From the sequence record OR466728.1: a stretch of 48,315 bases of DNA; one strand, 5' to 3'. This document shows, one piece after another, positions 30,289 to 48,315 of the stretch (positions are counted from its first letter, which is position 1; each line of letters starts with the position of its first letter). The notes beneath the pieces are model-generated. The model searched no databases, was not told the origin of the DNA, and saw nothing but the letters and a program-made list of their open reading frames with translations. The stretch comes from Escherichia phage ES. Both the position numbers and the translations under genes were made by a program.

Positions 30289-30306
30289 TAGCACTTTTTG
30301 TTAAAC
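30289..30306 (+). promoter_or_regulatory. dyad box copy 7 (TAGCACTTTTTGTTAAAC) in divergent region
   Basis: TATTAT about 21-22 nt downstream; helicase ATG 83 nt downstream; 14 nt from the ATG of the divergent HTH gene. Confidence 0.5.
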
Positions 30307-33507: not shown

Positions 33508-33927
33508 ATGAAAATCACAGACAAAGGTGATTACCTCGAGTTCTATGGCGGACCGGTGAAGTCATGCCCAAAGGAAGACGATGAACAAATCTTCTGCTCT
33601 GATTGGGTGAAATACAACTATCCGCAGATTGTTTACTGGCACACGATTAACGAAAATAAAAAGAGCATTGGTCAAGCAATAAAAGACCAAGCCAAGGGGC
33701 TTCTCAAAGGTGTGTCAGACTGCTTATTTCTGATACCTGAGTCATTGCGTGGCGGTTATCCATTTGGCGCCATAGAGTTAAAGAGGGCTGGTAAAACGCA
33801 AGCAAGCCCAGTTAGCAATGAGCAAAAGTCATTCCTAAAAAGCGTAAGGGAATCAGGCGGTTTCGCAGCGGTGGCTTATGGAAGAGAGGGTTTTCTTGCG
33901 GCATTCGCAGAGATGATAAGAAAATAG
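33508..33927 (+). CDS. VRR-NUC-like nuclease (putative)
   Basis: 139 aa; ...D...IELKRAGK... PD-(D/E)XK-like core; RBS GGAGG. Confidence 0.45.
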   Translation: MKITDKGDYLEFYGGPVKSCPKEDDEQIFCSDWVKYNYPQIVYWHTINENKKSIGQAIKDQAKGLLKGVSDCLFLIPESLRGGYPFGAIELKRAGKTQASPVSNEQKSFLKSVRESGGFAAVAYGREGFLAAFAEMIRK

Positions 33928-33942
33928 CACGAATTGCTAAAG
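33925..33942 (+). promoter_or_regulatory. dyad box copy 8 (TAGCACGAATTGCTAAAG)
   Basis: TAG is the stop of 33508-33927; TATTAT 22 nt downstream, then CATCGAAAC; ATG of 34006 is 81 nt downstream. Confidence 0.55.
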
Positions 33943-34005
33943 ACGAATTGGTGAGTTGGTGTATTATCAACTCATCGAAACGAAACAAAGAGAGAGATAA
34001 ATAAA

Positions 34006-34194
34006 ATGAAAGACATTATTACTAAAGAATCCCAAAGCTACTACGCCTCATACTATGAGACAGTTAATGGTTTTAAATTTATTGATATAGAGCAAGGTGG
34101 AAACGCCGTTACGCTAACTAGCGAAAAAGATTTAAATGACATGATTTCGTTCTTAGAAAAAGTGAAAGAGCATTTAAATAGCACGAATTGCTAA
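34006..34194 (+). CDS. hypothetical protein (C-terminus NSTNC)
   Basis: 62 aa, RBS AAAGAGAGAGA; last five codons are encoded by the next dyad box. Confidence 0.5.
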   Translation: MKDIITKESQSYYASYYETVNGFKFIDIEQGGNAVTLTSEKDLNDMISFLEKVKEHLNSTNC

Positions 34195-34196
34195 AG
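34179..34196 (+). promoter_or_regulatory. dyad box copy 9 (TAGCACGAATTGCTAAAG)
   Basis: lies inside the 3' end of 34006-34194; TATAGT 22 nt downstream, CATCGAAAC; ATG of 34256 is 77 nt downstream. Confidence 0.55.
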
Positions 34197-34255
34197 AGAT
34201 TTCGCAGGGACGCGATATAGTTACTCCATCGAAACAAAACGCAGAGAGAAAGAAA

Positions 34256-34444
34256 ATGGCTACTATCTATACTGGTAAATTCTACGAATCACGCAAGACT
34301 GGTTACGAATATGAATTAGTAATTACAGATGACGGTTATGCTCTTGATGATGGTGAAGGATACGCATTTGAAGTTAGCCCAACTTACAAATATGATCTGG
34401 AAACTGTTAAAAACGAATTCGGCGAAAAATTTGATGAGGTATAA
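34256..34444 (+). CDS. hypothetical protein
   Basis: 62-aa ORF, RBS AGAGAGAAAG. Confidence 0.5.
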   Translation: MATIYTGKFYESRKTGYEYELVITDDGYALDDGEGYAFEVSPTYKYDLETVKNEFGEKFDEV

Positions 34445-34449
34445 GAGTA

Positions 34450-34671
34450 ATGGCAATTTTAACATTTGACAAACAATGGGAACTATTTCAGGCAATGGGG
34501 GTTCAGGAGCTACACAATGCTGGTTATAAAGGTAACTCATGGTTTTTAGCAGGATGCCTTGATTACAGCTTTGAAGAAGATTACTTGCGAACGGACATCG
34601 AAACATGGCGCGAACGCATGGTTGCAGACATTGCGGAAATGAAAAAAGATTGCCCGGAGGATTTTGAATAA
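34450..34671 (+). CDS. hypothetical protein
   Basis: 73-aa ORF, RBS GAGG. Confidence 0.5.
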   Translation: MAILTFDKQWELFQAMGVQELHNAGYKGNSWFLAGCLDYSFEEDYLRTDIETWRERMVADIAEMKKDCPEDFE

Positions 34672-34796
34672 TGAAAATCTTAGATAAGGAGATGTTCGAA
34701 ATTGCACAGACTTATGCAAATGAAGCAGTTAAAACCGGATCAGAATATTGTTGGATGTGTGCTAAAGAATATCTGAAAATGGCTTATGACTTATGA
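34671..34796 (+). CDS. hypothetical small protein
   Basis: 41-aa ORF below the track cut-off, tightly packed in the operon. Confidence 0.35.
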   Translation: MKILDKEMFEIAQTYANEAVKTGSEYCWMCAKEYLKMAYDL

Positions 34797-35041
34797 TAGT
34801 TGAAACCGGACGCGCCGCAGTTTGGGCGCATTGCGGAGAGGCGGGATTGCAGGATGACATCAAGAAAATATCTAAATACTTCGATATTCAAGAAATCAGC
34901 GTTGTCTACGGCGGTAAGTTTTCATATATACAAGATCGTCCAAGGAAATATGTAAGAGTTAAACCAGGTGCCAGGATTGATGTTAACGAGTTCCTTAAAT
35001 CTGAGGGATTCAAGTTTAAGATAACGAAGCATAAGGATTAA
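34793..35041 (+). CDS. hypothetical protein
   Basis: 82-aa ORF, ATGA overlap with upstream stop. Confidence 0.45.
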   Translation: MIVETGRAAVWAHCGEAGLQDDIKKISKYFDIQEISVVYGGKFSYIQDRPRKYVRVKPGARIDVNEFLKSEGFKFKITKHKD

Positions 35042-35043
35042 TC

Positions 35044-35190
35044 ATGAAGCCACACGAATATTCAGCATTGGTTAACGGGTTACTTGAGGTTTCTATAAAA
35101 TTCAAGGATACGCAGCAGTTAAGGGAGCAGCTATCACGAGAACTCTCAAGGCATGGTATTAGACCGAGTCATAAGATGGAAAAGGATTGA
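35044..35190 (+). CDS. hypothetical small protein
   Basis: 48-aa ORF below the track cut-off, fills the gap between flanking genes. Confidence 0.3.
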   Translation: MKPHEYSALVNGLLEVSIKFKDTQQLREQLSRELSRHGIRPSHKMEKD

Positions 35191-35192
35191 GC

Positions 35193-35444
35193 ATGTTGGG
35201 TTTAGATTTTCAGCCGGAGCATTACGATTTAGTATATGGTCAAAGTGGTGCGAAGTTTAGAGCGATACCTATTTCTGACTGGTTTCCTCCTGACTACGTG
35301 GATGTTAATGCGAAGACGAAGGATGGTAAATGGGTACAGATTTACTATTCCCCAGCGTGCGGGAATCTCTGCATGACAGACCTGGACCAGAAATTAGAAA
35401 TTAGTGCAGATTTAATTGATTACTGGTTGAAAGAGGTTGTATGA
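35193..35444 (+). CDS. hypothetical protein
   Basis: 83 aa from ATG 35193, RBS AAGGA. Confidence 0.45.
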   Translation: MLGLDFQPEHYDLVYGQSGAKFRAIPISDWFPPDYVDVNAKTKDGKWVQIYYSPACGNLCMTDLDQKLEISADLIDYWLKEVV

Positions 35445-35515
35445 AGTACACAGCCCTAGTAGCATTAGTACCACTGTTTAGCTTTACTATCTTATATTTT
35501 ATTGTGATGAACTAA
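35441..35515 (+). CDS. hydrophobic micro-peptide (24 aa, putative membrane)
   Basis: MKYTALVALVPLFSFTILYFIVMN; RBS AAGAGG 5 nt upstream; ATGA overlap with upstream stop. Confidence 0.3.
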   Translation: MKYTALVALVPLFSFTILYFIVMN

Positions 35516-35525
35516 GGACTTAAAA

Positions 35526-36659
35526 ATGGCAGCATCAAAGATTACAAATGAACAGCTTATCGAAGAGCTGAAAAGCGGCCTGACTAACAAGGCAATTGCA
35601 GAGAAGTACGGCATGAATATTCGCAACGTTGAGCTTCGTCGCAGTAAGTTGGCTAAGAGTGGTATTGGGCATGGTAATGAAGGTATCAAGAAGCTAGTTC
35701 CTGACGGTTATTTAGTCAAGGGCACCTCAACAATGATTGATGCGGAAGGGAATGAGAAGCTGCGTTGGGTTAAGACTTCGATTGATGCTGAGAAGCAAGA
35801 AGAGATGCTTCAGCAGATTGTTAAGGCTCTTACAGACGAGGTTCCTCGCGAGACTCCAAAGCCACTCAGTGAATCAAGCTATGAAGATACATTGAGTCTC
35901 TACCCTGTATTTGATATGCACATTGGCGCAATGGCTCACCATGCAGAGTGTGGGGAGAACTACAGTACAGAAATTGCAGAGCGAGTGCTTAACCAATACT
36001 TTGATTATGCAGTTGCTAAGGCCCCGAATTCATCAAAAGCCGTATTACTGATTGGTGGAGACTTCCTTCACTCGGATGGAATGGAAGCTGTAACTCCAAC
36101 CAGCAAGCACGTACTTGATCAAGATAGCCGTTATCATAAACTTGTCTACGTAGCTGTTCGTGCAACTCGCCGCGCCGTCAGTAAGATGCTTGACAAGCAT
36201 AAAGAGGTTGAGGTTCAGATTATACCAGGCAACCACGACCTTTCTGGGATGATTTGGCTTCGAGCTGCAATGGCTGCCTTCTACATGGATGAGCCTCGTG
36301 TAAATGTTGATGCCTCACCAGCCGCTCTTCACGTGACGGAGTTTGGTAAAACATTGTTGGGTTACTGCCATGGTCATGAATTGCGAAAGCCTGACACTCG
36401 TCTTTCAACTCTTGCGCGCGACCATCGCAAAGCATTTGGTAATGCTGAATACGTTTATACACATAGTGGCCATTATCATCATCAGACGGTTACTGAGGGT
36501 AATCTTGGAATTGATGAGTCACACGGTCAGTTGGGTGCTAAAGATGCGTACAGCGCAAACGGAGGGTATCGCTCTTATCGTCAGGCCTCAGTAATTATCT
36601 ATAGCTCAGAGTACGGTGAAGTTGGTCGATTCACTTGCCGACCTGAAATGTTTAAGTAA
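35526..36659 (+). CDS. calcineurin-like metallophosphoesterase with N-terminal HTH domain
   Basis: phosphoesterase motifs DMHIG, GGDFLHSD, PGNHD; N-terminal HTH-like LTNKAIAEKYGMNIRNV. Confidence 0.55.
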   Translation: MAASKITNEQLIEELKSGLTNKAIAEKYGMNIRNVELRRSKLAKSGIGHGNEGIKKLVPDGYLVKGTSTMIDAEGNEKLRWVKTSIDAEKQEEMLQQIVKALTDEVPRETPKPLSESSYEDTLSLYPVFDMHIGAMAHHAECGENYSTEIAERVLNQYFDYAVAKAPNSSKAVLLIGGDFLHSDGMEAVTPTSKHVLDQDSRYHKLVYVAVRATRRAVSKMLDKHKEVEVQIIPGNHDLSGMIWLRAAMAAFYMDEPRVNVDASPAALHVTEFGKTLLGYCHGHELRKPDTRLSTLARDHRKAFGNAEYVYTHSGHYHHQTVTEGNLGIDESHGQLGAKDAYSANGGYRSYRQASVIIYSSEYGEVGRFTCRPEMFK

Positions 36660-36677
36660 TAGCACTTTTTGTTAATA
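36660..36677 (+). promoter_or_regulatory. dyad box copy 10 (TAGCACTTTTTGTTAATA)
   Basis: immediately after the TAA stop of 35526-36659; ATG of 36733 is 73 nt downstream; -10 weak (CAAAAT). Confidence 0.4.
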
Positions 36678-36732
36678 AAGCCTCAAAGGATTGAGGCAAA
36701 ATGAATAAACGATAACGATATGAGGAGTTGTA

Positions 36733-37206
36733 ATGATTTACGTGTTTGATATTGATGGAACTGTTGCTAACAATGAACATAGAAGCCACCTCTTACCATC
36801 TAGTGACCTTCACTTGACTTCAAGTTGGAGTGATTACAATAGAGCCTGTTCTGGAGATTCACCGATAATCCCAATGATAAACATGATGAATGCGTTAGCT
36901 GAGTTATCGCCAGTTTACATCATGACTTCAAGAAGTGACGAAGTCGAATGTATGACGCTTGAATGGCTTCAGTATAATAATATTAATTATGATGGAATAT
37001 ATATGAGGAGTAGATTGGATAACAGAAATGACTATATCATTAAAGAGATGTGGCTAAATGATTTGTGTAATGGTGACAAAGCAAGTGTGATAATCTTTGA
37101 GGATAATCCTAATGTTATCAGTCACCTAAGGAATTGCGGATATACTGTAATGTCAGTTTGTGAATATAAAGAATTACCAAAAGACTGCGAATCTCACGGA
37201 GAATAA
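36733..37206 (+). CDS. HAD-superfamily phosphatase (polynucleotide 3'-phosphatase-like)
   Basis: motif I VFDIDGTV at N-terminus; 157 aa; RBS GAGGAG. Confidence 0.55.
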   Translation: MIYVFDIDGTVANNEHRSHLLPSSDLHLTSSWSDYNRACSGDSPIIPMINMMNALAELSPVYIMTSRSDEVECMTLEWLQYNNINYDGIYMRSRLDNRNDYIIKEMWLNDLCNGDKASVIIFEDNPNVISHLRNCGYTVMSVCEYKELPKDCESHGE

Positions 37207-37207
37207 A

Positions 37208-37762
37208 ATGAAAAAGTTAATCATCCTTAATGCACCCCCTGGTGCTGGAAAAGATACAGTTGCAGATATCATTGTTAATCTTGGAATTTGCAAGGATAAG
37301 GTTTCATTCAAGTCACCAATGTTTAATGTTGCAAAAGGAATACTATCAAGTGATGAGTTTGATGGATTTATTAATAATTACGATGACCGAGAGTACAAAG
37401 AATCACCACACGAATTTCTTGGTGGAATGACTGTTCGTGAATTTATGATTTGGATTAGCGAATCAGTTATGAAGCCAGTCTTTGGTGATGATGTTTTCGG
37501 CAAAAGGCTCACACAATCACTTGGTGATGGATGCTACATTTGTTCAGACGGTGGATTTGCGAGTGAAATCGAACCACTGATTGGCAACGGCGTTGAGGTT
37601 ACATTGATTAGGCTTCACAGGCCTGGTTATACTTTCGAAGGAGATAGTAGGTCATACCTTAGTTGCGTCTGCGCAAGAGAGATTGATGTTGATGTTATTG
37701 AAGGTGATATTAAAAGAACTACAGAAAAAGTAATTAGTGCAATCAATAGCACGAATTGCTAA
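37208..37762 (+). CDS. P-loop kinase (nucleotide or polynucleotide kinase-like)
   Basis: Walker A LNAPPGAGKDT at residues 6-16; 184 aa from ATG 37208 (RBS GGAG); ends NSTNC inside a dyad box. Confidence 0.55.
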   Translation: MKKLIILNAPPGAGKDTVADIIVNLGICKDKVSFKSPMFNVAKGILSSDEFDGFINNYDDREYKESPHEFLGGMTVREFMIWISESVMKPVFGDDVFGKRLTQSLGDGCYICSDGGFASEIEPLIGNGVEVTLIRLHRPGYTFEGDSRSYLSCVCAREIDVDVIEGDIKRTTEKVISAINSTNC

Positions 37763-37764
37763 AC
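37747..37764 (+). promoter_or_regulatory. dyad box copy 11 (TAGCACGAATTGCTAAAC)
   Basis: overlaps the last codons of 37208-37762; AATAAT about 23 nt downstream, CATCGAAAAC; ATG of 37821 is 74 nt downstream. Confidence 0.5.
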
Positions 37765-37820
37765 AATCACCTTAGAGATGCGGAATAATCAACACATCGA
37801 AAACAAGAGAGGATTCAAAA

Positions 37821-37994
37821 ATGACTAAATTATACTGCGTTAAAAACAACTCCAAGACACTGCCTTTTACCGAGAGCCAACCTTATAGCGGAGAGTCGCT
37901 TGGAGATGGTTACTACAAGATTTACGGAGACGATATGACTCACATCCTTGCGCCGATTGATGGCTCTTTGGTGGAATTTATTATCGCAGATTAA
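37821..37994 (+). CDS. hypothetical small protein
   Basis: 57-aa ORF, RBS AAGAGAGG, followed by strong terminator. Confidence 0.4.
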   Translation: MTKLYCVKNNSKTLPFTESQPYSGESLGDGYYKIYGDDMTHILAPIDGSLVEFIIAD

Positions 37995-38021
37995 CACATC
38001 AAAAACATAGATTTGCATGCG

Positions 38022-38047
38022 GGGGGCCTTTTGGCTCCCTTTTTTTT
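38022..38047 (+). terminator. rho-independent terminator
   Basis: 7-bp stem GGGGGCC/GGCTCCC with one wobble, TTTT loop, 8 T. Confidence 0.55.
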
Positions 38048-38121
38048 GCTTATAATTTGCCACCGCCTAATGTATGATATTTGCACTATGTATTGACAAA
38101 TTAGGATTTAAAGGTGATCAC

Positions 38122-38337
38122 ATGAGGGAAGTAATTAACGCCGCCACGGCATCAACCGGCGGAGCCGCTGTAACTGGTGCCGCAACTGGTCAAATGACTA
38201 TAGCAATAATCAGCCTTGTGGCTCTTGTTGTTTTCGGGCTGTGGGGAGCATATTGGAAGTTTAAGGACAGTCAGGCAATCAGGAAGGCTCTAGAGTCGGG
38301 TGATTTAAAGACAGCTATCAATATTAGGAGTAAGTAA
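38122..38337 (+). CDS. holin (putative)
   Basis: 71 aa from ATG 38122 (RBS AGGTGA); one hydrophobic TMD IAIISLVALVVFGLWGAYW and charged C-terminus; directly upstream of endolysin. Confidence 0.55.
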   Translation: MREVINAATASTGGAAVTGAATGQMTIAIISLVALVVFGLWGAYWKFKDSQAIRKALESGDLKTAINIRSK

Positions 38338-38822
38338 TGAAGCAGAAGCTGGTAATTAGTGCAGCGACGGCTGTGGCAATATACATCGCAGCGCCGATTA
38401 TTGAGCTAGTAGAAGGTGTGGAATACAAGCCTTACATGGACATTGCAGGCATTCCTACGGTTTGTTCAGGTATCACTGGTCCTGATGTGGTGTGGGGTAA
38501 AAAGTACAGTGCAAGGGAGTGCAGGAACTTACTGGAGAAACACATCCAGATTCATGGAAAGTATGTGCAGGATGCAGTAACTTACCCAATCTCTCCACAG
38601 ACAAGGGCGGCGTTAATCAGCTTTAGCTACAACGTTGGTGGCGCTGCAATGAGGAAGTCAACGGCAGTAAGGCTGATTAATCAGGGCAAGATTGAAGAGG
38701 GTTGTAATGCTCTCGCCTCCTGGAATAAAGCTCGAGTAAATGGCAAGCTAAAAGTTGTTAAAGGCCTCGTTAACAGGCGCAACGAGGAGATTAAATTATG
38801 CTTAAGTGGGGTGGGTAAATGA
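38337..38822 (+). CDS. SAR endolysin (T4-lysozyme-like)
   Basis: N-terminal weakly hydrophobic signal-anchor-release segment, then E-x8-D-x5-T catalytic triad (ELVEGVEYKPYMDIAGIPT). Confidence 0.75.
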   Translation: MKQKLVISAATAVAIYIAAPIIELVEGVEYKPYMDIAGIPTVCSGITGPDVVWGKKYSARECRNLLEKHIQIHGKYVQDAVTYPISPQTRAALISFSYNVGGAAMRKSTAVRLINQGKIEEGCNALASWNKARVNGKLKVVKGLVNRRNEEIKLCLSGVGK

Positions 38823-39205
38823 AGGCTGCGTTAATTGCTGCGGTAATTATACTTTCTGGTTGCTCGGCAACATCTGCGCTGACCGGGTTGATTGGTAGTA
38901 AGCCAGAGATTAGCGCTCAAGCAGGTGCGGAGAATAACAAGGTTGGAGTAGGGCTAACTAATAAGGTTGATTCAAGTTCCAGCGCAAAGGCTGAAGTGAA
39001 GAACTCTAAGGTTGACACTCTTGATAGTTCAAGCGGTAAAAAGACTTCTGATAACTCAATCAAGGCATCAACAATCACGGCTGAGAAGATTGAAATCACC
39101 AACAATGACTCGTCTGCAATCCCGTGGATTGGGAGTGGAATCATGTTTTGCGTCATCATCATTCTGCTCTTAATGATATTCAGGAAAAACAAAAAAGCCC
39201 CGTAA
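38819..39205 (+). CDS. unimolecular spanin (T1 gp11-like)
   Basis: N-terminal lipoprotein signal with lipobox ILSGC and C-terminal TMD GIMFCVIIILLLMIF in one 128-aa protein. Confidence 0.65.
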   Translation: MKAALIAAVIILSGCSATSALTGLIGSKPEISAQAGAENNKVGVGLTNKVDSSSSAKAEVKNSKVDTLDSSSGKKTSDNSIKASTITAEKIEITNNDSSAIPWIGSGIMFCVIIILLLMIFRKNKKAP

Positions 39206-39218
39206 TGGGGCTATTTTT
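39196..39218. terminator. bidirectional terminator between lysis cassette and minus-strand block
   Basis: AGCCCC/GGGGCT stem, A-run upstream and T-run downstream. Confidence 0.55.
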
Positions 39219-39552
39219 ATGCAAACAATTCGTCATCACTCATGTTGGCTATGTTCATCATCTCACTGACGTAATCACTGGACCTACCTTCAAGGCTCAT
39301 GAATTCAAACTGAAATGGTCGCTTAATTGAACCCTTACACCAGTACACTCCATTAACTCCATCAAGATAACCAGCCGTAAGCATTCTCGCCATAAACTCC
39401 TTCGAGCAACTTGAGGCAAAATACCTTTCATCAACCCCGGCAGCCTTGGCCATCCTTGCGCAATCCTTGTGCTTATAGATGAATCTTGCCAGGTGCTGGC
39501 GGTTGAAGTTCTTGTATCCTTCGCAGAAATTATACAGGTCGAGCAGGTACAT
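39217..39552 (-). CDS. hypothetical protein
   Basis: 111-aa ORF, overlaps the upstream minus-strand gene. Confidence 0.45.
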   Translation of the reverse strand: MYLLDLYNFCEGYKNFNRQHLARFIYKHKDCARMAKAAGVDERYFASSCSKEFMARMLTAGYLDGVNGVYWCKGSIKRPFQFEFMSLEGRSSDYVSEMMNIANMSDDELFA

Positions 39553-39555
39553 AAA

Positions 39556-41139
39556 TTACCCCAGCAATCGTGGATTAATGTAAATTTTATCACCAATCAG
39601 GCATGTGTAGTTTTTCTCATCAAGCATAGGAATCAAGTGGTCCTTAATGCGAGTCATAATTCCAGCCTGAGCTTCAAAAGGTTTAACCTTGCGTGCAGCC
39701 TCATACAACGAGCGAACACCAACAACACCTTTACCATTCTTGCCCTGCTTAATCAGGATATCAACCAGCTTGTTCATCTCGGCATTGTCACCAGCATGAC
39801 CAGCAGCACTAGCTGATGACAAATACGTCTTGCTTAGCTCGTTGAAAATCATAACTGCCTCCTGCATTGTCTCCAGTTCAATCTCTCTGGACTTCTGCGG
39901 GCTAGAGCCAGTTTGTGAGGACCAGTTACGAATAACGTGAAGTACGGAAGCGATGCGGATTGCTTGCTTATCAAACTTACCAAGAGCACCGCGCAACATT
40001 GTGTGAGAATACTTGCCACCATCACCAAGATGAGGCTCCATCTCCTGACGTGCTCGGTTAAGGTAACGCATTGATGATGCGCTTACTGTTAGCTTAACCT
40101 CTACTTCATTCATAATCTCATGAACAAGACGGAAGTAGTCCGCTTTCAGGCCGCCATCAATAGCCTCGTATGTTGAATCACCATTAGCATCAACAAATAC
40201 GCGGTCGCCAAGGAATGACTTTTCGCGCACCAGAAGGAAACGCTCAGATACACCAATACCACGCGCACCAGCATTCATAATGGCATTGATTGTTTCATCC
40301 TGAGCAATTACGGAGATGCATCCCATAGCCACAAAGCTCATGTTATTTTCTGCGTTCGCACGGGCAATTGACACATTACCTGCATCCCATGCTTTCAGCA
40401 CGAGCTCGCTGTTCGTTTTCTTAGAGCCATCACCATATGTCATACCCAACAATGAGTTGACGCTAGTTGCCTCATCCGAGATTACCGAGAAGTTACCCTG
40501 GCGGTTGTTGATTCGCGCAAGGCCTTCTGGTGTAGTATCGGAGACAGGGAATACGATATCGCACAGCTTCTCAAGTTTTTCCTCCAGGTCTTCTTTATCT
40601 TCAAACAATGAAGCCATTTCAGAAGGTGATTTCTCCTGCTTCATCTCTTTAGCCAGGGCGGACAGTTTAGCCATAATCTTTTTTCGATCACGTTTACGTA
40701 CTTCATTCAACCGCTCAGTCTCAGCAATCATTGGCGCGATTGCCAGTGAGTTAATGGCTGACTTACCAGTTGAAGGAGGCTGGCTCGTCACGACATAAAG
40801 AGATGTCGGCTGCTGGGTTCCGTGATACTCAACAGTGAAGCGCCCAAGCATTGCAGCGGACACGCAGCCCAGAAAGTGCATATAAGCAGATGACTCAGGG
40901 AACTGAACTGAGCGAGCGATGTTGGCTGACAGCTTGCCAACAATATCAATGTCATTACCGAGTGAGATTACTGGATATTTGTAATTCCCAGCATCAATCT
41001 CGACAGGTGCTTTCCAGAATGATTGAGACTGGCGATAACCATTTGCATTAATTGCTACGCGAAGTGGTGGAAGGTTGTCTGTAGCTGCAATTGCCATAAC
41101 TTGTTCAACAGATAGTTTATCTTCGTTGAAATCAAACAT
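39556..41139 (-). CDS. P-loop ATPase, replication-associated (putative)
   Basis: 527 aa; Walker-A-like VTSQPPSTGKSA; own promoter box upstream. Confidence 0.35.
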   Translation of the reverse strand: MFDFNEDKLSVEQVMAIAATDNLPPLRVAINANGYRQSQSFWKAPVEIDAGNYKYPVISLGNDIDIVGKLSANIARSVQFPESSAYMHFLGCVSAAMLGRFTVEYHGTQQPTSLYVVTSQPPSTGKSAINSLAIAPMIAETERLNEVRKRDRKKIMAKLSALAKEMKQEKSPSEMASLFEDKEDLEEKLEKLCDIVFPVSDTTPEGLARINNRQGNFSVISDEATSVNSLLGMTYGDGSKKTNSELVLKAWDAGNVSIARANAENNMSFVAMGCISVIAQDETINAIMNAGARGIGVSERFLLVREKSFLGDRVFVDANGDSTYEAIDGGLKADYFRLVHEIMNEVEVKLTVSASSMRYLNRARQEMEPHLGDGGKYSHTMLRGALGKFDKQAIRIASVLHVIRNWSSQTGSSPQKSREIELETMQEAVMIFNELSKTYLSSASAAGHAGDNAEMNKLVDILIKQGKNGKGVVGVRSLYEAARKVKPFEAQAGIMTRIKDHLIPMLDEKNYTCLIGDKIYINPRLLG

Positions 41140-41194
41140 TACTTCTCTCCGTATTGTTTCTGAGCGGATATTATATCAACAGCCGCTTATAATA

Positions 41195-41212
41195 CATTAT
41201 CAATTTGTGCTA
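41195..41212 (-). promoter_or_regulatory. dyad box copy 12 (minus strand TAGCACAAATTGATAATG)
   Basis: TAG is the stop of HNH gene 41210-41707; perfect TATAAT 22 nt downstream on minus strand; 56 nt upstream of ATG 41139. Confidence 0.5.
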
Positions 41213-41707
41213 TTTGCCATGATTTGGGTGATAACCCAGCCTCACCTCTGCAACAATTCTTGCCTCACATGCAGAGATAAAGTCATCAAAAAAACCAAGG
41301 TGAACAGTCTTTCCACCACTCTGTATTGAGGCCCTCCACTTACCTGTTCTTTTGTATATGGCGACTCCAGTTACACCACTTTTATTATCAAACCTTAATG
41401 ATGAGTTCATTGAATTCACTTTTTGGGTAACAAGCCTTAGATTTTCAATCCTATTGTCACGCCTATTTCCATTTATGTGGTCTATGAATAGACAATCAGG
41501 TATGTCTCCATTAGTCATCTCCCATATAATTCTGTGAGCCATTGTGTAGCCGATTCCCTTATTGCTAACCCTAACGTACCCGCTTGTTGTAACCTCCGTG
41601 TTAACTGGCTTATTTGCATATTTTGTATTCCAAGATTGAGTTCTATCTGACCTCTCCTTTCTGTACAAAACTGAATCTTTTATATAAAAAATTTCATTCC
41701 AGTTCAT
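41210..41707 (-). CDS. HNH homing endonuclease
   Basis: AHRIIWEMTNGDIPDCLFIDHINGNRRDNRIENLRLVTQKVN; ATG 41707 overlaps upstream stop (ATGA). Confidence 0.7.
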   Translation of the reverse strand: MNWNEIFYIKDSVLYRKERSDRTQSWNTKYANKPVNTEVTTSGYVRVSNKGIGYTMAHRIIWEMTNGDIPDCLFIDHINGNRRDNRIENLRLVTQKVNSMNSSLRFDNKSGVTGVAIYKRTGKWRASIQSGGKTVHLGFFDDFISACEARIVAEVRLGYHPNHGK

Positions 41708-42090
41708 GAGTATTTTGCTTCCATTTTGTATGTGCCACACAATGTTTTAAAGCCAACGTCATCCCTGTACAGCTGCCATGCAAAGCCACCCTCATCATAG
41801 ATGTACCCCGCTTGCTGGCCCAGTCCAGAGTGAAGGTTTACGATATATCTCTTGCCTTCTTTGAAGTCTTTCTTAACTCCTGACTTATGGTTAACATTAG
41901 TGCAGTAAAGCGTCTTCGTCTTAATGTATTTCCCACGCTCTTCAAGATTAATCCACTTGCCATTTTTCTTGATTTGCTCAAATTCAACTTCCTCAGCGAC
42001 ACCGTTAACCCACTGGTGAATCTTTTTAACGCGAGCTTTAAACAGTTTGTTATCGTTGCTAATCCAATTTTTGGTTATCGTAGTAGTCAT
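41704..42090 (-). CDS. hypothetical protein
   Basis: 128-aa ORF, RBS AGAGAG upstream of ATG 42090. Confidence 0.45.
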   Translation of the reverse strand: MTTTITKNWISNDNKLFKARVKKIHQWVNGVAEEVEFEQIKKNGKWINLEERGKYIKTKTLYCTNVNHKSGVKKDFKEGKRYIVNLHSGLGQQAGYIYDEGGFAWQLYRDDVGFKTLCGTYKMEAKYS

Positions 42091-42127
42091 TATTTTACTC
42101 TCTTCGTTGTTTCATTTCGATGAAATA

Positions 42128-42154
42128 ACTATACAGGAAAAGCCCCGAAGGGCT
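42128..42154 (-). terminator. minus-strand terminator hairpin embedded in a promoter spacer
   Basis: on minus strand AGCCC/GGGCT stem then TTTTCC, immediately followed by TATAGT. Confidence 0.45.
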
Positions 42155-42170
42155 TTAGCAATTCGTGCTA
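42153..42170 (-). promoter_or_regulatory. dyad box copy 13 (minus strand TAGCACGAATTGCTAAAG)
   Basis: overlaps the NSTNC C-terminus of the 53-aa minus ORF; TATAGT 22 nt downstream; ATG 42090 about 63 nt downstream. Confidence 0.5.
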
Positions 42171-42316
42171 TTTCGTGCCTTCTCAATCGCCTTCAGCATA
42201 ATCTCGTGAGACTCAAGCAAGTCCTCGTTGAACCAGTCTCCGCAAGGCCACCCCTTCCCACTGTAAGCGGCAACAACGCTCAAGTCGTAATAGTTAATGT
42301 CAGATGGTAGAAGCAT
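42155..42316 (-). CDS. hypothetical small protein (C-terminus NSTNC)
   Basis: 53-aa ORF, TAATG coupling with the upstream gene. Confidence 0.35.
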   Translation of the reverse strand: MLLPSDINYYDLSVVAAYSGKGWPCGDWFNEDLLESHEIMLKAIEKARNSTNC

Positions 42317-42519
42317 TATTCAGTCACCTTAAAAGTTGCAATTCCTGGGATGACTACGTAATCAAGGCATTTAAGCGCCTGGAACGTATCGTGGTTCTTG
42401 TGCGGACGATCTCCGGTAATAAGGCACATGTCATTTTTAAACTCAGTAGCGTTGTATTCAGAACCCTTATTGAAGGCATCGTTAAAGTCTTTAATTACGT
42501 TCGTGCAAATTAGCTTCAT
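42316..42519 (-). CDS. hypothetical protein
   Basis: 67 aa from ATG 42519 (RBS AAGGAA). Confidence 0.4.
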   Translation of the reverse strand: MKLICTNVIKDFNDAFNKGSEYNATEFKNDMCLITGDRPHKNHDTFQALKCLDYVVIPGIATFKVTE

Positions 42520-42530
42520 TATCTCATTCC

Positions 42531-42716
42531 TTACCAGGGTAAACATTCGTCGCAGCCGAGGCCATCGCAGCACAGATAATAATCTTCTGACTGGAATTGC
42601 TTAGCCAGGTCGATATCGATGCGTCCGCGTAAAACCATATCAGTATAGTCACTGTTCAATCCAATCAGCGCACATTCCTGCTTTAATTGCTCAAATGCTT
42701 CGTCTTTAAGTTTCAT
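42531..42716 (-). CDS. hypothetical Cys-rich small protein
   Basis: 61 aa with CCDGLGCDEC near C-terminus; RBS GAGGAGAGGG. Confidence 0.45.
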   Translation of the reverse strand: MKLKDEAFEQLKQECALIGLNSDYTDMVLRGRIDIDLAKQFQSEDYYLCCDGLGCDECLPW

Positions 42717-42769
42717 ATCCCTCTCCTCGTTGTTGATGGATTCATTATGGCCTCGTCGCCAGTTTTTGT

Positions 42770-42787
42770 CATTAGCAAAAAGTGCTA
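42770..42787 (-). promoter_or_regulatory. dyad box copy 14 (minus strand TAGCACTTTTTGCTAATG)
   Basis: perfect TAGCA-N5-TGCTA dyad; CATAAT about 22-23 nt downstream on minus; 54 nt upstream of ATG 42716. Confidence 0.5.
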
Positions 42788-42807
42788 TTCGTTGGATTTA
42801 TCTATTG

Positions 42808-42899
42808 TTGCAGCTATTGCAATGATTATCATGATTATTGCACATATAGCAATATTGCATGGAATGCAATGATGTTTTTGATTGTTGCAGAATTTGCAA
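42808..42899. promoter_or_regulatory. array of four TTGCA-N5-TGCAA palindromic sites (operator- or iteron-like)
   Basis: sites at 42808-42822, 42838-42852 (imperfect), 42855-42869, 42885-42899; spacings 30/17/30 nt. Confidence 0.55.
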
Positions 42900-43028
42900 T
42901 GATTGATGTGGGGTGAATGAATAGTGGATGAACTACCATACAAGTTGATTTTGATTCTTGCTGAGCCAATTTGGATATACACGTTATCGAAGTTATGGTG
43001 TGTATATGAGGTGCGCTTCCGAAGAATC

Positions 43029-43121
43029 ATACACGCCTACCACGCGAGATTACGCAATGGTTACATAATAATATCTATATATATCAACCTTTTACTATAT
43101 TATTATTATTATTATATATAT
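43029..43121. repeat. control-region repeat block 1 (copy B) with (TAT)n microsatellite
   Basis: matches 22911-23000. Confidence 0.6.
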
Positions 43122-43255
43122 GTATGTATATGGTGTAGATTGGTCGTATGGATGGGTCGATAGTTTTTCTATGAAAACTACTAATTTTATCTATATAGAT
43201 ACATATGCATACCCCCGGCGAATCCGCGTAAAATCTTACACAGGGTAATTACACC

Positions 43256-43308
43256 AGCTATAGCTGGGCTGAGAGGTCAAAAAGCGTAACCAATGCAGAT
43301 ATAAACAC
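43256..43308. repeat. control-region repeat block 2 (copy B)
   Basis: matches 23144-23197 (AGCTATAGCTGGGCT...GCGTAACCAAT). Confidence 0.6.
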
Positions 43309-43388
43309 AACATAACACTTGATAACGCGTATATTCATGATACCATGGTTTCATCTTAACGAAGAGCAACCAATCAGGAGTAACGAAT

Positions 43389-43910
43389 ATGTCAGAACAT
43401 AAAGAAGCAGTAAGTTTGGGTGAAATCATTCGATACATGGCGAGTCAGGCGCTCAAGTCAGAAGACAAAGTGTGCACAGTCCCTGTGACCATGATTGCTC
43501 GTCAATACTTCGGCATGAGTCGTGAGACGTTCGTATCGCTAAGTGGTGAGGAGGTTCTACCTGGTGGTGAATACCACATGCCAAAACTAAAAGCGTCATA
43601 CGTTTCAAACACCGTAAGCCGAATGCCTGAGATTAAGGCGGCTGACGTGCGCTCAAGGTTCTCACTTAGTTTTACCGACTTTGAGGGCGAGAGTGAGACA
43701 TACTGCGCATCACTTAGCCTGGTTCCTGGCGCTGTAAAATCCGGCTCAAGAAGCAAAGCAGAGCAAGAGAAGGAGGCGGCTACCATTGAAAGGTTCAAGG
43801 CTCGATTGTTGAAACTATCACCAAGCGTCGCTGGTCTTGAAGGTGATGAACTTAAGGGTGCAGTATCAATGATTAACGCATACCAGGAAATGATTAAGGA
43901 GACTAAATAG
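43389..43910 (+). CDS. hypothetical protein (first gene of early region)
   Basis: 173-aa ORF, RBS CAGGAG. Confidence 0.5.
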   Translation: MSEHKEAVSLGEIIRYMASQALKSEDKVCTVPVTMIARQYFGMSRETFVSLSGEEVLPGGEYHMPKLKASYVSNTVSRMPEIKAADVRSRFSLSFTDFEGESETYCASLSLVPGAVKSGSRSKAEQEKEAATIERFKARLLKLSPSVAGLEGDELKGAVSMINAYQEMIKETK

Positions 43911-44011
43911 TAGGTATCCTAGTAGACTACCATACCACTTTCGGTACGGTGAGGAGGAGGTTGAGGCGGCTATGGAGTTTTATCGGAAAGCTAAGTCACT
44001 CCTGAATGGAA

Positions 44012-44029
44012 ATAGCACTTTTTGCCTAA
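44012..44029 (+). promoter_or_regulatory. dyad box copy 15 (TAGCACTTTTTGCCTAAC)
   Basis: CATAAT 22 nt downstream, CATCGAAAC; ATG of 44093 is 81 nt downstream; spacer contains ATGCCA/TGGCAT hairpin. Confidence 0.5.
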
Positions 44030-44092
44030 CGCAATAATGCCATGGATGGCATAATTATCTCATCGAAACGAGAGGCACAAAGGAAAACGAAA

Positions 44093-44281
44093 ATGGCTAA
44101 GCGCATCACTAAAGAACTTAAAGTCCTGAATAAAGAAAACGTAATCACCATCCTGACAATGTTCGGATACAACGAAGAGTCAGCGATTGCAAAGGTTGAG
44201 GCTGGTTACGATGTTGCAGTACGTAGTATGCCGGAAGCAACCTCAAAAGGTATCGCCGACTTCCTGGCTACCTGCTACTGA
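44093..44281 (+). CDS. hypothetical protein
   Basis: 62 aa from ATG 44093, RBS AAAGGAAAA. Confidence 0.45.
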   Translation: MAKRITKELKVLNKENVITILTMFGYNEESAIAKVEAGYDVAVRSMPEATSKGIADFLATCY

Positions 44282-44336
44282 GTTATCTTACAAGGCATCT
44301 CGCGGGGTGCCTCAATAAGACAACTGGAGAAACAGC

Positions 44337-44522
44337 ATGAAAACTAAAATGGTACATAAGAGCGAAGTTAAGATTGGCGATACTGTTATCCATCGTGGCT
44401 ATCTTAGAACTGTAAATGCCAACACTTTTAGTAAGGATGAGTTTATGGGACTACTTCTTTGGGGCGACTCCTACCGGCTTGGGCAGGAGATGGTTGAAGT
44501 TATAATTGATGTTAAGTTTTGA
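44337..44522 (+). CDS. hypothetical protein
   Basis: 61-aa ORF, RBS GGAGA. Confidence 0.45.
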   Translation: MKTKMVHKSEVKIGDTVIHRGYLRTVNANTFSKDEFMGLLLWGDSYRLGQEMVEVIIDVKF

Positions 44523-44523
44523 A

Positions 44524-44541
44524 TAGCACAAATTGTTAAAC
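44524..44541 (+). promoter_or_regulatory. dyad box copy 16 (TAGCACAAATTGTTAAAC)
   Basis: starts 2 nt after the TGA of 44337-44522; TATAGT 22 nt downstream; ATG of 44599 is 75 nt downstream. Confidence 0.5.
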
Positions 44542-44598
44542 CTTCCGCAAGGCCATTTGATATAGTGGCCTTATTAAAGCAAAGCAAGAGAGGGTGGG

Positions 44599-44829
44599 AT
44601 GGATAGGAACAAATATGAAAGAGAGATTACTGGGCTTAATGGCGAGCGGGCTGTTGTTGATGTGTATCGCACGCTATCAGCGTTCAACGTTACAGACCCA
44701 GCATGTCAGCATGCAATCAAAAAGCTGCTCTGCATGGGTTTACGAGGTCACAAGGATGTTATCACAGACCTTGATGACGCAATAGACTCACTGAACAAGA
44801 TGAAAACTTACCTGGAACAAACGAAATGA
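44599..44829 (+). CDS. hypothetical protein
   Basis: 76-aa ORF, RBS AGAGAGGG. Confidence 0.45.
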   Translation: MDRNKYEREITGLNGERAVVDVYRTLSAFNVTDPACQHAIKKLLCMGLRGHKDVITDLDDAIDSLNKMKTYLEQTK

Positions 44830-45059
44830 TTACAATTAACCTGTCAGAGAAAGATGCAGCAATCCTTAAATCGATCATAATGAAGCCGATGTACTCTACG
44901 CTCACCTTTGAGCAGATGCGTGTCGTAAAAGAGACTAGCGCGCAAATCAACAATCAGCAGTTCGACGTATCAGACTTCGAGTCATCTCGCCAGTACGAGC
45001 AGCTAAGCGTGCAGAATGCTGGCTACCTCACTAACTGGGATAAGGCGACAAAGAGATGA
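44826..45059 (+). CDS. hypothetical protein
   Basis: 77-aa ORF, ATGA overlap with upstream stop. Confidence 0.45.
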   Translation: MITINLSEKDAAILKSIIMKPMYSTLTFEQMRVVKETSAQINNQQFDVSDFESSRQYEQLSVQNAGYLTNWDKATKR

Positions 45060-45202
45060 TTTACATTCACACTTACTATACAGGAAAGTTTAACAGCGTT
45101 AAGCACGTGCGTGTGCATGAAACATACGAATCGGCACATAGTCAGCTTAGAGTTCTTGGTGGAACAATTACAATGTGTGAAATTGTTGAAGAATACAGAT
45201 AG
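45056..45202 (+). CDS. hypothetical small protein
   Basis: 48-aa ORF, ATGA overlap; its TAG stop is the first triplet of a dyad box. Confidence 0.35.
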   Translation: MIYIHTYYTGKFNSVKHVRVHETYESAHSQLRVLGGTITMCEIVEEYR

Positions 45203-45217
45203 CACGAATTGCTAAAC
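45200..45217 (+). promoter_or_regulatory. dyad box copy 17 (TAGCACGAATTGCTAAAC)
   Basis: CATAAT 22 nt downstream, CATCGACAAC; spacer hairpin GCCGGAGTAATCCGGC; ATG of 45275 is 75 nt downstream. Confidence 0.55.
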
Positions 45218-45274
45218 AATCGCCGGAGTAATCCGGCATAATTACTACATCGACAACGAACGAGTAAATGAAGA

Positions 45275-45487
45275 ATGAAAATTAAAATTATCGACGTGAA
45301 CCACATACCAGAAGAAGGCGTTCTGACACTTGAAGAATGCGGGTTTAAGGTTGGTGACGTATTAGAAGTAACCGGTCGGTTCGGGTGTGGTAGCTTATCA
45401 GCTCGAGAGATTCGTGATACTGAGTTAGTATCAATAGGACAGATGGTTAGTTTTGAAGAAGGCGAGTACAAGGTGGTCGAAGAATGA
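45275..45487 (+). CDS. hypothetical protein
   Basis: 70-aa ORF. Confidence 0.45.
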   Translation: MKIKIIDVNHIPEEGVLTLEECGFKVGDVLEVTGRFGCGSLSAREIRDTELVSIGQMVSFEEGEYKVVEE

Positions 45488-45663
45488 AATTCCAGAAAAG
45501 TAACCCTAAGCTCCAGGCTAACAACTTCGATGGTTACACAACATTTATCATCGCCCAGGCTTTCGGTTTGCATGATGAACCTAAGGTTCATACTATCCAC
45601 TTAAATGAAGAGCAAGCTCGAGAACTGGCTTTCGAGATTCTTGATCAATTGAATAAAATTTAA
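45484..45663 (+). CDS. hypothetical small protein
   Basis: 59-aa ORF, ATGA overlap with upstream stop. Confidence 0.35.
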   Translation: MKFQKSNPKLQANNFDGYTTFIIAQAFGLHDEPKVHTIHLNEEQARELAFEILDQLNKI

Positions 45664-45673
45664 GGTTTATAAA

Positions 45674-46096
45674 ATGAAATTAAGCAAATCTCAAAGGGAA
45701 GAGTTGAAGGGCAAGTTCGGTGGTCGCTGCGCTTATTGTGGGTGTGAACTACCTGAGAAAGGCTGGCATGCTGACCATGTTGAACCGGTGCTACGTAAAT
45801 CTGAGGTATGCATGAAGGCAGCGGAGAAAGGAACTTTCAAGCTGAAGGCGACAGGTGAGTTTAATCGACCACAAGCTGATCGAATGGAAAACCTTTACCC
45901 TGCATGTGCTCCATGCAACCTCATGAAAACTTGCTATTCCCTTGAAATGTTCAGGGAACAGGTGTCTCTTCAAGTCGCTCGCGGGCGTAAGAGCAGCATG
46001 AATTTTCGCACGGCAGAGCGGTTCGGCCTCATCTCCATAGTGGAGGATCCAGTTGTTTTCTGGTTTGAGAAGTTTGAGCAAATTAACAAAATCTGA
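45674..46096 (+). CDS. HNH endonuclease (zinc-finger HNH type)
   Basis: CAYCGC...WHADHVEPV...NLYPACAPCN motif arrangement. Confidence 0.65.
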   Translation: MKLSKSQREELKGKFGGRCAYCGCELPEKGWHADHVEPVLRKSEVCMKAAEKGTFKLKATGEFNRPQADRMENLYPACAPCNLMKTCYSLEMFREQVSLQVARGRKSSMNFRTAERFGLISIVEDPVVFWFEKFEQINKI

Positions 46097-46106
46097 GGAT
46101 AGAGAA

Positions 46107-46241
46107 ATGCATACTGGGTTAATGATGGATGAAGTTCTGGTTGAAGCATTGCCATGGTTACTCTGGTCATTGGGCTTCATGATTATTTACATGATTTCAG
46201 CAGCCGTAGATGACGCTAAAAGCGATTCTAACGAACTATAA
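46107..46241 (+). CDS. small membrane protein (putative)
   Basis: 44 aa from ATG 46107 (RBS GAGGA), hydrophobic helix ALPWLLWSLGFMIIYMISAAV. Confidence 0.35.
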   Translation: MHTGLMMDEVLVEALPWLLWSLGFMIIYMISAAVDDAKSDSNEL

Positions 46242-46259
46242 TTTAAGTGAGGTGATTGC

Positions 46260-46420
46260 ATGATTAAGATCGTATACATTGGTCAGGATGATTATATGGC
46301 GCGCTTAAAGCATGGCGACGTATTCTATGCAGAGCCTAGCGAAGATGGCAATGGGTACTTCATTAAAAACAAGCACGATGAGGAGCTTTACATAGCAAAC
46401 CACGAGGCTCTTGTTTACTA
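46260..46420 (+). CDS. hypothetical small protein
   Basis: 53-aa ORF, RBS GTGAGGTG. Confidence 0.35.
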
Positions 46421-46561
46421 ATGGATAACTACGAAACACCAAGCCAGTGGGCTAAACGGATGATGGATGAGGCTAAGACTGGCGAGGTTGCCATGATGTA
46501 CTTCGAGCTGATGAATCTATGGAAGGAGCGTGAAGATAAAATAAACAGCACGAATAGCTAA
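46421..46561 (+). CDS. hypothetical small protein (C-terminus NSTNS)
   Basis: 46-aa ORF overlapping upstream stop; its 3' end is encoded by a dyad box. Confidence 0.35.
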   Translation: MDNYETPSQWAKRMMDEAKTGEVAMMYFELMNLWKEREDKINSTNS

Positions 46562-46563
46562 AC
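46546..46563 (+). promoter_or_regulatory. dyad box copy 18 (CAGCACGAATAGCTAAAC, degenerate)
   Basis: perfect TATAAT 22 nt downstream; spacer hairpin GGCA/TGCC; ATG of 46618 is 72 nt downstream. Confidence 0.45.

Positions 46564-48160: not shown

Positions 48161-48315
<155 letters not shown>

What the first reader, a model, noticed from the sequence alone, without database searches (positions are those of the whole stretch)
33925..46563. Dyad boxes overlap the 3' ends of upstream genes and impose NSTNC-type C-termini
In seven copies (805, 2890, 24966, 33925, 41195, 45200, and 44524 offset by 2 nt) the leading TAG of the box is, or directly follows, the stop codon of the preceding gene. In four others the box is read as the last codons aat-agc-acg-aat-tgc-TAA, giving unrelated proteins the same tail: 34006-34194 ...HLNSTNC, 37208-37762 ...AINSTNC, 42155-42316(-) ...ARNSTNC, 46421-46561 ...KINSTNS. 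A fifth small ORF (43972-44037) reads a variant box as NGNSTFC. The regulatory element therefore constrains coding sequence in a very compact genome.
Basis: seen in the sequence. Interest (0 to 1): 0.5.

Follow-up and report, generated by a model that had tools for sequence, protein, structure and literature searches.

The report
Phage promoter boxes double as stop codons
In this T1-like coliphage a conserved 20-bp promoter box sits flush against the preceding gene and supplies its stop codon or its last five amino acids (N-S-T-N-C), and the box itself looks like a binding site for the host stress regulators MarA/SoxS/Rob rather than a symmetric "dyad".

Summary
The window is Escherichia phage AN_ECEAS (Drexlerviridae). 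It carries 19 oriented copies of AAATAGCACnnnTTGYTAAA.

In 12 of 13 junctions with a co-directional upstream gene, that gene ends on or against the box:
- at the box's TAG (6 genes);
- at its internal TAA, giving ...NSTNC/S tails (4 genes);
- at its own stop 1-4 nt before the box (2 genes).

The same holds across 590 box contexts from T1-like phages. There, 427 upstream ORFs stop at exactly -4, -3, 0 or +13.

Orthologues switch between these positions while the box stays put. Orthologues without a box lack the tail. The tail's codons vary only where the box is degenerate.

- The box is asymmetric, not a dyad.
- It is already published as the T1/TLS "21-nt direct repeat" of unknown function.
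- Two of the listed ORFs are doubtful genes.

New lead, inferred only: the box matches both published marbox/soxbox consensuses. It lies 18 bp upstream of an extended -10, the same spacing as in the E. coli micF class II promoter. This suggests that host MarA/SoxS/Rob drive these phage promoters.

The parts
805..819 (+). Box (T-type, TAGCACTTTTTGTTA). Its TAG (805-807) is the stop of the TerS-like gene 283..807.
2890..2904 (+). Box. Its TAG is the stop of the large terminase gene 1330..2892. The next start codon is 72 nt from the box start.
11565..11579 (+). Box with no overlap. The major tail gene stops 35 nt upstream and a terminator hairpin lies between.
22837..22851 (-). Box in a divergent intergenic region. 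There is no upstream co-directional gene.
24966..24980 (+). Box. Its TAG ends the 3' segment (...FHENHGK) of an HNH endonuclease gene frameshifted near 24690.
28757..28771 (+). Box antisense to both flanking minus-strand genes. It faces the primase terminator.
30289..30303 (+). Box in the divergent region between the HTH regulator gene (29802..30275, -) and the helicase gene.
31695..31709 (+). Weaker box inside the unannotated LAGLIDADG ORF 31010..31864.
33925..33939 (+). Box. Its TAG is the stop of the VRR-NUC gene 33508..33927. A -10 hexamer TATTAT lies at 33962-33967. The predicted transcription start is A33974.
34177..34194 (+). AAT AGC ACG AAT TGC TAA. The box at 34179 is read as N-S-T-N-C-stop at the end of the unannotated 62-aa ORF 34006..34194.
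36657..36674 (+). The gene's own TAA (36657-36659, gene 35526..36659) lies immediately before box 36660, giving an in-frame TAA-TAG.
37745..37762 (+). Box 37747 read as N-S-T-N-C-stop at the end of the dNMP-kinase-like gene 37208..37762.
41198..41212 (-). Box. Its TAG (41212-41210) is the stop of the HNH endonuclease gene 41707..41210.
42155..42172 (-). Box 42156 read as N-S-T-N-C-stop at the end of the 53-aa gene 42316..42155 (phrog_4548).
42773..42787 (-). Box. Its TAG is the stop of the unannotated 81-aa ORF 43030..42785, which is conserved in L003 and L014.
44013..44028 (+). Variant box with a 1-nt insertion (TTGCCTAA). It is overlapped by a doubtful 21-aa ORF, 43972..44037 (...NGNSTFCLTQ).
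44520..44538 (+). TGA of gene 44337..44522, then one A, then box 44524. This is the third-frame solution, in which the gene uses its own stop.
45200..45214 (+). Box. Its TAG is the stop of the 48-aa gene 45056..45202 (phrog_3955).
46544..46561 (+). Degenerate box (CAGCACGAATAGCTA) read as N-S-T-N-S-stop at the end of the 46-aa gene 46421..46561 (phrog_1312). The PHROG profile does not cover the tail.

Best explanation
Shown: the box is the upstream element of the standard promoter module of T1-like phages. The module is AAATAGCACnnnTTGYTAAAAC, then 18 bp, then an extended -10 (TGnTATAGT), then a conserved start region (CCATCGAAAC), then a GAGAGA ribosome site and ATG. The start codon lies 70-83 nt from the box start.

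Shown: the box begins with TAG and has TAA at bases 14-16. Its A-rich 5' flank becomes TAA with a single extra T. In a tightly packed genome almost no spare DNA lies between a gene and the next promoter, so the upstream gene runs up to the box. It then ends at the box TAG (frame 0), at the box TAA after translating AAT-AGC-ACN-AAT-TGC as N-S-T-N-C (frame +1), or at its own TAA/TGA 1 nt before the box (third frame). The box acts as a built-in backstop, and the peptide tail is a by-product of DNA-level constraint.

Inferred, about 55% likely: the box is not a dyad operator. It is an asymmetric class II marbox/soxbox, bound by a monomer of host Rob, MarA or SoxS. That protein replaces the missing -35 contact and recruits RNA polymerase.
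For: Module and spacing: consensus from 183 contexts; box-to-ATG distance 70-83 nt.

Stop positions:
- window table;
- 590 contexts from 1.42 Mb of T1-like DNA: 270 stops at 0, 57 at -4, 42 at -3, 58 at +13, and only 4 beyond +15;
- random-position control: 1-7 of 210;
- 126 of 158 upstream gene families have a member at one of the four positions, and 21 families switch state among orthologues.

Independent annotation: ten T1 RefSeq CDS end at these offsets, including ST66 ...KTNSTNC.

The tail tracks the box. Synonymous sites are frozen. Five of the eight TAG stops among the annotated genes of this genome are box TAGs.

Marbox reading:
- Published definitions are gcannwwntgnnaaa (PMC12052159) and AYNGCACNNWNNRYYAAAYN (PMC2064960).
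- They match 13 sites (0.99 expected) and 15 sites (1.04 expected) in the window. All 13, and 13 of the 15, are box copies.
- E. coli micF reads ACAGCACTGAATGTCAAAAC + 18 nt + TAGAAT. The phage reads ATAGCACGAATTGCTAAAAC + 18 nt + TATAGT.
- In the Rob-RNAP-micF structure, Rob contacts -47G and -45A of GCAC. Those are the positions of the phage GCAC if transcription starts 7 nt after the -10.
- The micF soxbox is centred at -41.5.
- Position 12 is C in 63% of copies and T in the rest, which is the Y of the marbox but breaks the dyad.
- No MarA homologue is encoded in the window or in T1.
Against: - No transcription start site, protein binding or expression data exist for these promoters. The -10 and the start site are inferred from conservation.
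- The box is more conserved than the marbox consensus requires (T at positions 0, 9 and 13). A dedicated phage factor with similar specificity is therefore not excluded.
- Classical T1-resistance genetics, as I remember it, found receptor genes and not rob, marA or soxS. Any dependence would then be redundant or merely stimulatory.
- A few boxes lie antisense to their neighbouring genes (window 28757; T1 18835-18849). The simple model does not explain these.
- Translation of the NSTNC tails is unproven, and one of the four ORFs has no homologue in the two phage collections searched.
Confidence: 0.8

Rival explanations
1. The box is a symmetric (dyad) operator for a dimeric phage-encoded regulator, for example the conserved HTH protein at 29802..30275(-), the T1 ST23 homologue. 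The overlap with gene ends is the same by-product.
For: The core TAGCA-N5-TGCTA is a 5+5 inverted repeat. The phage encodes a conserved regulator: phrog_2856, E 8e-84, with weak Cro/MerR-like HTH hits. One box lies next to its gene.
Against: Conservation is asymmetric. G at position 2 is 100% conserved, but its dyad partner at position 12 is C in only 63% of copies. Position 5 (C) and position 9 (T) are not complementary. Both flanks are A-rich rather than A and T. Orientation relative to the -10 and to the gene is fixed in 17 of 19 copies. The whole 20 bp fits a monomeric two-HTH site.
Confidence: 0.2
2. N-S-T-N-C is a selected C-terminal peptide signal (a degradation, modification or targeting tag) shared by unrelated proteins. 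The DNA similarity would then be a consequence of the peptide.
For: The same five residues end unrelated proteins in the window and in T1.
Against: All 36 such ORFs use the same codons. Variation occurs only at box-degenerate bases. Orthologues lose the tail when the box is absent or is met in another frame. The same sequence occurs at 270 sites where it is not translated.
Confidence: 0.03
3. The box acts at the RNA or elongation level, as a hairpin, terminator or L5-type 'stoperator', and is coupled to translation termination.
For: The TLS paper raised stoperators as one possibility. The box is transcribed whenever upstream genes read through it.
Against: The RNA hairpin is weak (-3.7 and -1.3 kcal/mol) and has no U-tract. 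Each box is followed at a fixed 22 nt by a -10 element and a start region. T1-like phages are virulent and have no known repressor.
Confidence: 0.05
4. The promoter modules are recombination junctions. Genes are gained and lost as box-to-box cassettes, and that is why unrelated genes end exactly in a box. This is compatible with the main explanation and accounts for origin, not function.
For: Relative to relative L003, the window has a 254-bp insertion consisting of one extra promoter module plus the 62-aa ORF without homologues. Both window modules align to the single L003 module. HNH endonuclease genes repeatedly end ...NHGK-TAG on a box.
Against: Only one clear case was examined. Frame switching among orthologues is explained more simply by small indels.
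Confidence: 0.3

Closest known systems
21-nt direct repeats of T1-like phages (aaATAGCACnnnTTGnTAAAA), described for TLS and noted in T1, Rtp and Rogue1 (PMC11447400)
   Same: Same sequence, same orientation with transcription, same distance of about 76 nt to start codons, and the same A/T/G subtypes of the central triplet.
   Different: That paper left the function open (stoperator, enhancer site or UP-like element). Its text section and its supplementary table of repeats do not mention overlap with stop codons or imposed C-termini.
Class II MarA/SoxS/Rob promoters of E. coli (e.g. micF)
   Same: A 20-bp asymmetric site that matches both published consensuses. It has forward orientation, 18 bp to the -10, no usable -35, and GCAC at about -47 to -44.
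   Different: It lies in a virulent phage at about 19 copies per genome. It is much less degenerate than the chromosomal sites. It is paired with an extended -10. Binding and activation are untested.
Phage promoters that overlap the end of the preceding gene (e.g. T7-type promoters; recalled from memory, not checked here)
   Same: A conserved promoter sequence shares bases with the 3' end of the upstream gene in a compact genome.
   Different: Here the element carries stop codons in two frames, plus a flank that easily supplies the third. Gene ends therefore fall at four exact offsets family-wide, and one frame yields a fixed pentapeptide.
Mycobacteriophage L5 stoperators
   Same: Many short, asymmetric, oriented sites in short intergenic spaces.
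   Different: Stoperators are repressor sites that block elongation in a temperate phage. These boxes each carry their own -10 at fixed spacing, in a virulent phage.

Membership tests
T1-like phage 21-nt direct repeat | Consensus aaATAGCACnnnTTGnTAAAA | tested here: met
   19 copies in the window. The family consensus from 183 contexts is identical.
T1-like phage 21-nt direct repeat | Oriented with transcription, about 76 nt upstream of start codons | tested here: met
   16 of 19 copies lie 70-83 nt from the next annotated start. Box 33925 lies 81 nt from the unannotated ATG at 34006. The exceptions are 28757 and 31695.
Class II mar/sox/rob promoter | Match to the marbox/soxbox consensus (gcannwwntgnnaaa; AYNGCACNNWNNRYYAAAYN) | tested here: met
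   13 exact matches against 0.99 expected, and 15 matches with up to 1 mismatch against 1.04 expected. Consensus sources.
Class II mar/sox/rob promoter | Forward orientation, overlapping the -35 position, centred near -41.5, about 18 bp from the -10 | tested here: met
   The spacing to the conserved -10 is 18 bp, the same as measured on MG1655 micF. The position relative to +1 rests on an inferred start site.
Class II mar/sox/rob promoter | Binding and activation by MarA, SoxS or Rob | not testable with these tools
   Needs EMSA, in vitro transcription or host mutants. No phage-encoded MarA homologue was found.
Palindromic operator for a dimeric regulator | Two-fold symmetric conservation; function independent of orientation | tested here: not met
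   Positions 2/12, 5/9 and the flanks are not symmetric, and orientation is fixed.
Sigma-54 promoter (look-alike TGGCAC-N5-TTGC) | GG at -24 and GC at -12, exactly 10 bp between the dinucleotides | tested here: not met
   The box has AG instead of GG, and the two elements are 2 bp closer (read from the sequence). The sigma-54 consensus is from memory.
Intrinsic terminator | Stable GC-rich hairpin followed by a U-tract | tested here: not met
   Hairpin energy is -3.7 or -1.3 kcal/mol, and the hairpin is followed by A's.

The most novel reading that the evidence does not exclude
T1-like phages (Drexlerviridae) have built nearly all their promoters as high-affinity class II marboxes. Phage gene expression would then be driven by the host stress and antibiotic-response activators Rob, MarA and SoxS. 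The roughly 20 sites on each replicating genome could also titrate those activators away from the host regulon. The stop codons embedded in the marbox let genes be packed flush against each promoter.
Probability: 0.5. Interest if true: 0.75.

Novelty: new member of a known kind. Interest (0 to 1): 0.5.

Why it matters
- It shows cleanly and quantitatively that a regulatory DNA element dictates protein C-termini and stop-codon choice across a whole phage family. This is useful for annotation, because short genes and true gene ends can be called from the box. The GenBank record misses two ORFs that end on boxes.
- The four discrete solutions (-4, -3, 0, +13), and the switching between them among orthologues, illustrate how genome compaction is reconciled with overlapping codes.
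- The repeats of T1-like phages have been unexplained since the T1 genome paper (my recollection; the 2024 TLS paper, still leaves their function open). Recognising them as class II marbox look-alikes turns that question into simple experiments. If confirmed, it would link infection by a very common coliphage family to the mar/sox/rob antibiotic-stress regulon.

Tried and rejected
- Sigma-54 promoter: rejected. The spacing is 2 bp too short and the box has AG instead of GG.
- Terminator or RNA hairpin: rejected as too weak.
- IHF and Fis sites: compared by eye with remembered consensuses. No fit; no tool-based test was run.
- Functional peptide tag: rejected.
- Homologues of ORF 34006..34194: none among 50,697 phage records or in IMG/VR. 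Its status as a gene therefore rests only on its promoter-RBS-ATG geometry. The large protein databases were not searched for it.
- L019 and L020, which lack boxes, as a natural control: they share only the kinase gene and are not T1-like phages, so they are uninformative.
- Enrichment of C for T at box position 0 when the box is translated: 24% in the first data set but only 17% against about 5% in the larger one, and the contexts are not independent. I treat it as a weak trend.
- Literature: ten searches found no mapped transcription start sites for T1-like phages and no paper linking marboxes or Rob/MarA/SoxS to these phages. The library lacks most subscription journals, including the 2004 T1 genome paper.
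Full report
**Identity of the window.** The window is Escherichia phage AN_ECEAS (PP944860.1; Drexlerviridae, Braunvirinae). It is 100% identical over the tested 5 kb. It is rotated so that window coordinate = record coordinate + 4360. The last ~155 bases are poly-G, preceded by an inverted duplication that begins near 48005; both look like an assembly artefact.

**The observation.**
- The 18-mer AATAGCACGAATTGCTAA occurs 14 times with up to 3 mismatches, against 0.06 expected.
- The core TAGCA-N5-TGCTA occurs 18 times with up to 1 mismatch, against 2.25 expected.
- A position weight matrix finds 19 oriented copies.

For every copy I located the stop codon of the upstream co-directional ORF.
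- Six ORFs stop at the box's own TAG: 283..807, TerL 1330..2892, VRR-NUC 33508..33927, HNH 41707..41210, 45056..45202, and an unannotated but conserved 81-aa ORF 43030..42785.
- A seventh TAG (box 24966) ends the 3' segment of an HNH gene frameshifted near 24690.
- Two genes stop just before the box: TAA at -3 (box 36660) and TGA at -4 (box 44524).
- The remaining boxes have no co-directional gene close upstream. Box 11565 follows a terminator. Boxes 22837 and 30289 lie in divergent regions. Box 28757 is antisense. Box 31695 lies inside an ORF.
- The 21-aa ORF at 43972 is a weak candidate.

**Generality.** I collected T1 itself and IMG/VR loci. These give 147 sources and 1.42 Mb.
- Among 590 distinct box contexts, the stop of the upstream ORF (at least 40 aa) lies at 0 in 270, at -4 in 57, at -3 in 42 and at +13 in 58. 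It lies beyond +15 in only 4.
- Random positions give 1-7 hits per 210, against 156 of 210 observed in the smaller set.
- Grouped by upstream gene family, 126 of 158 families use one of the four offsets. In 21 families the offset differs among orthologues.
- By majority state, frame 0 (offsets 0 and -3) is used by 78 families and each of the other two frames by 22. By my arithmetic this is far from 1:1:1 (chi-square about 51). The solution that adds no foreign residues is therefore preferred.
- In the independently annotated T1 RefSeq record, ten CDS end at these offsets. They include ST66, which ends KTNSTNC.

**Is the tail imposed by the DNA?** Yes.
- Orthologues of the 184-aa dNMP-kinase-like gene (phrog_139) are followed by the box in all T1-like loci. 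They end at +13 (NSTNC), 0, -3 or -4 depending on lineage.
- The 53-aa protein ends ...ARNSTNC where a box follows. It ends ...AKNINGEHK where the next gene overlaps directly and there is no box.
- The 46-aa protein likewise has other endings where no box follows.
- All 36 ORFs ending ST[NF][CS] among 3219 ORFs carry the box. Their codons vary only at positions where the box is degenerate.
- In this genome, five of the eight annotated TAG stops are box TAGs. Two of the other three belong to disrupted genes.

**What the box is.** The element is already published as the 21-nt direct repeat of TLS, T1, Rtp and Rogue1. Its function is unresolved and no overlap with stop codons is mentioned.

Alignment of 183 contexts shows a fixed module: AAATAGCACnnnTTGYTAAAAC, then 18 nt, then TGnTATAGT (an extended -10), then ccATCGAAAC, then an A/G-rich ribosome site. 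The start codon lies 70-83 nt from the box. No -35 hexamer sits at the proper spacing. The hexamer in that position reads AAAAAC.

Conservation is asymmetric, so 'dyad' is a misnomer:
- position 12 is C in 63% of copies and T in the rest;
- positions 5 and 9 are not complementary;
- both flanks are A-rich.

**The marbox lead.** The 20-bp element fits both published definitions of the MarA/SoxS/Rob site.
- The definitions are gcannwwntgnnaaa (PMC12052159) and AYNGCACNNWNNRYYAAAYN (PMC2064960).
- The window has 13 exact matches to the first (0.99 expected) and 15 matches with up to 1 mismatch to the second (1.04 expected).
- On the MG1655 sequence, micF reads ACAGCACTGAATGTCAAAAC + 18 nt + TAGAAT. 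The phage reads ATAGCACGAATTGCTAAAAC + 18 nt + TATAGT.
- The mar operon marbox ATGCCACGTTTTGCTAAATC shares 17 of 20 bases with the box at 2890.
- Neither the window nor T1 encodes a MarA homologue.
- I found no paper connecting marboxes with these phages.

This identification is an inference from sequence and geometry. It is not a demonstration of binding.

**How it most likely works.** The promoter element must stay intact, and selection for compactness removes DNA between a gene and the next promoter. The element offers TAG in one frame and TAA in a second. Its AAA flank offers TAA in the third with one extra T. Deletions that remove a gene's native stop are therefore tolerated, and genes end flush with the promoter. 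In the +1 frame this costs five extra residues.

One cassette-type event is visible. Relative to L003, the window has one extra promoter module plus the 62-aa ORF that has no known homologue, bounded by the repeated modules.

**Rivals.** The alternatives considered were a palindromic operator for the conserved phage HTH regulator, a functional peptide tag, and an RNA hairpin or stoperator. They are weighed in the rival section. The first remains possible at about 20%. The others are contradicted by the data.

**Verdict.** The observation and its interpretation hold and extend to the whole family. The phenomenon itself is a modest, tidy case of overlapping codes on a known repeat. The marbox identity of that repeat is the more consequential lead, and it is still unproven.

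Noticed in passing
window 30372-33506: The replicative helicase is a single gene in T1 (ST22). Here it is split into 30372..31181 (helicase N-terminus plus weak intein/HINT hits), an unannotated LAGLIDADG endonuclease ORF 31010..31864 in another frame, and 31833..33506. This looks like an intein or homing-endonuclease insertion with frame changes, or an assembly or annotation problem.
   Followed up: partly
window 24484-24968: This HNH endonuclease gene appears frameshifted at an A-run near 24690. GenBank annotates only the first 69 aa. The remaining reading frame continues to the box TAG at 24966.
   Followed up: partly
window 33922-34262: Relative to IMG/VR relative L003, the window has a 254-bp insertion made of one extra promoter module plus the 62-aa ORF without homologues. 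It is flanked by two copies of the module. This suggests gene gain by recombination at promoter modules.
   Followed up: partly
window 28757-28830; L002 (T1) 18780-18849: A complete box plus extended -10 points antisense to the neighbouring late genes and fires straight into a terminator hairpin. T1 has the same arrangement between its major tail gene and the next gene. The purpose is unknown; a short antisense RNA or transcriptional interference are possibilities.
   Followed up: no
window, about 45-57 nt downstream of each box start (e.g. 33970-33981): The predicted start region ccATCGAAAC is conserved across promoters and across phages, followed by an A/G-rich leader and a GAGAGA ribosome site. 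This is a shared 5' leader of unknown role.
   Followed up: no
window 42785-43030 (-): An unannotated 81-aa hydrophobic ORF that ends on a box TAG. It is conserved at 55-68% identity in L003 and L014. In L014 the box TAG is TGG, and the ORF runs 8 codons further.
   Followed up: partly
window ~48005-48315: The contig end carries an inverted duplicate of the preceding ~230 bases, followed by about 150 G's. This is a typical sequencing or assembly artefact and is absent from the GenBank record.
   Followed up: yes
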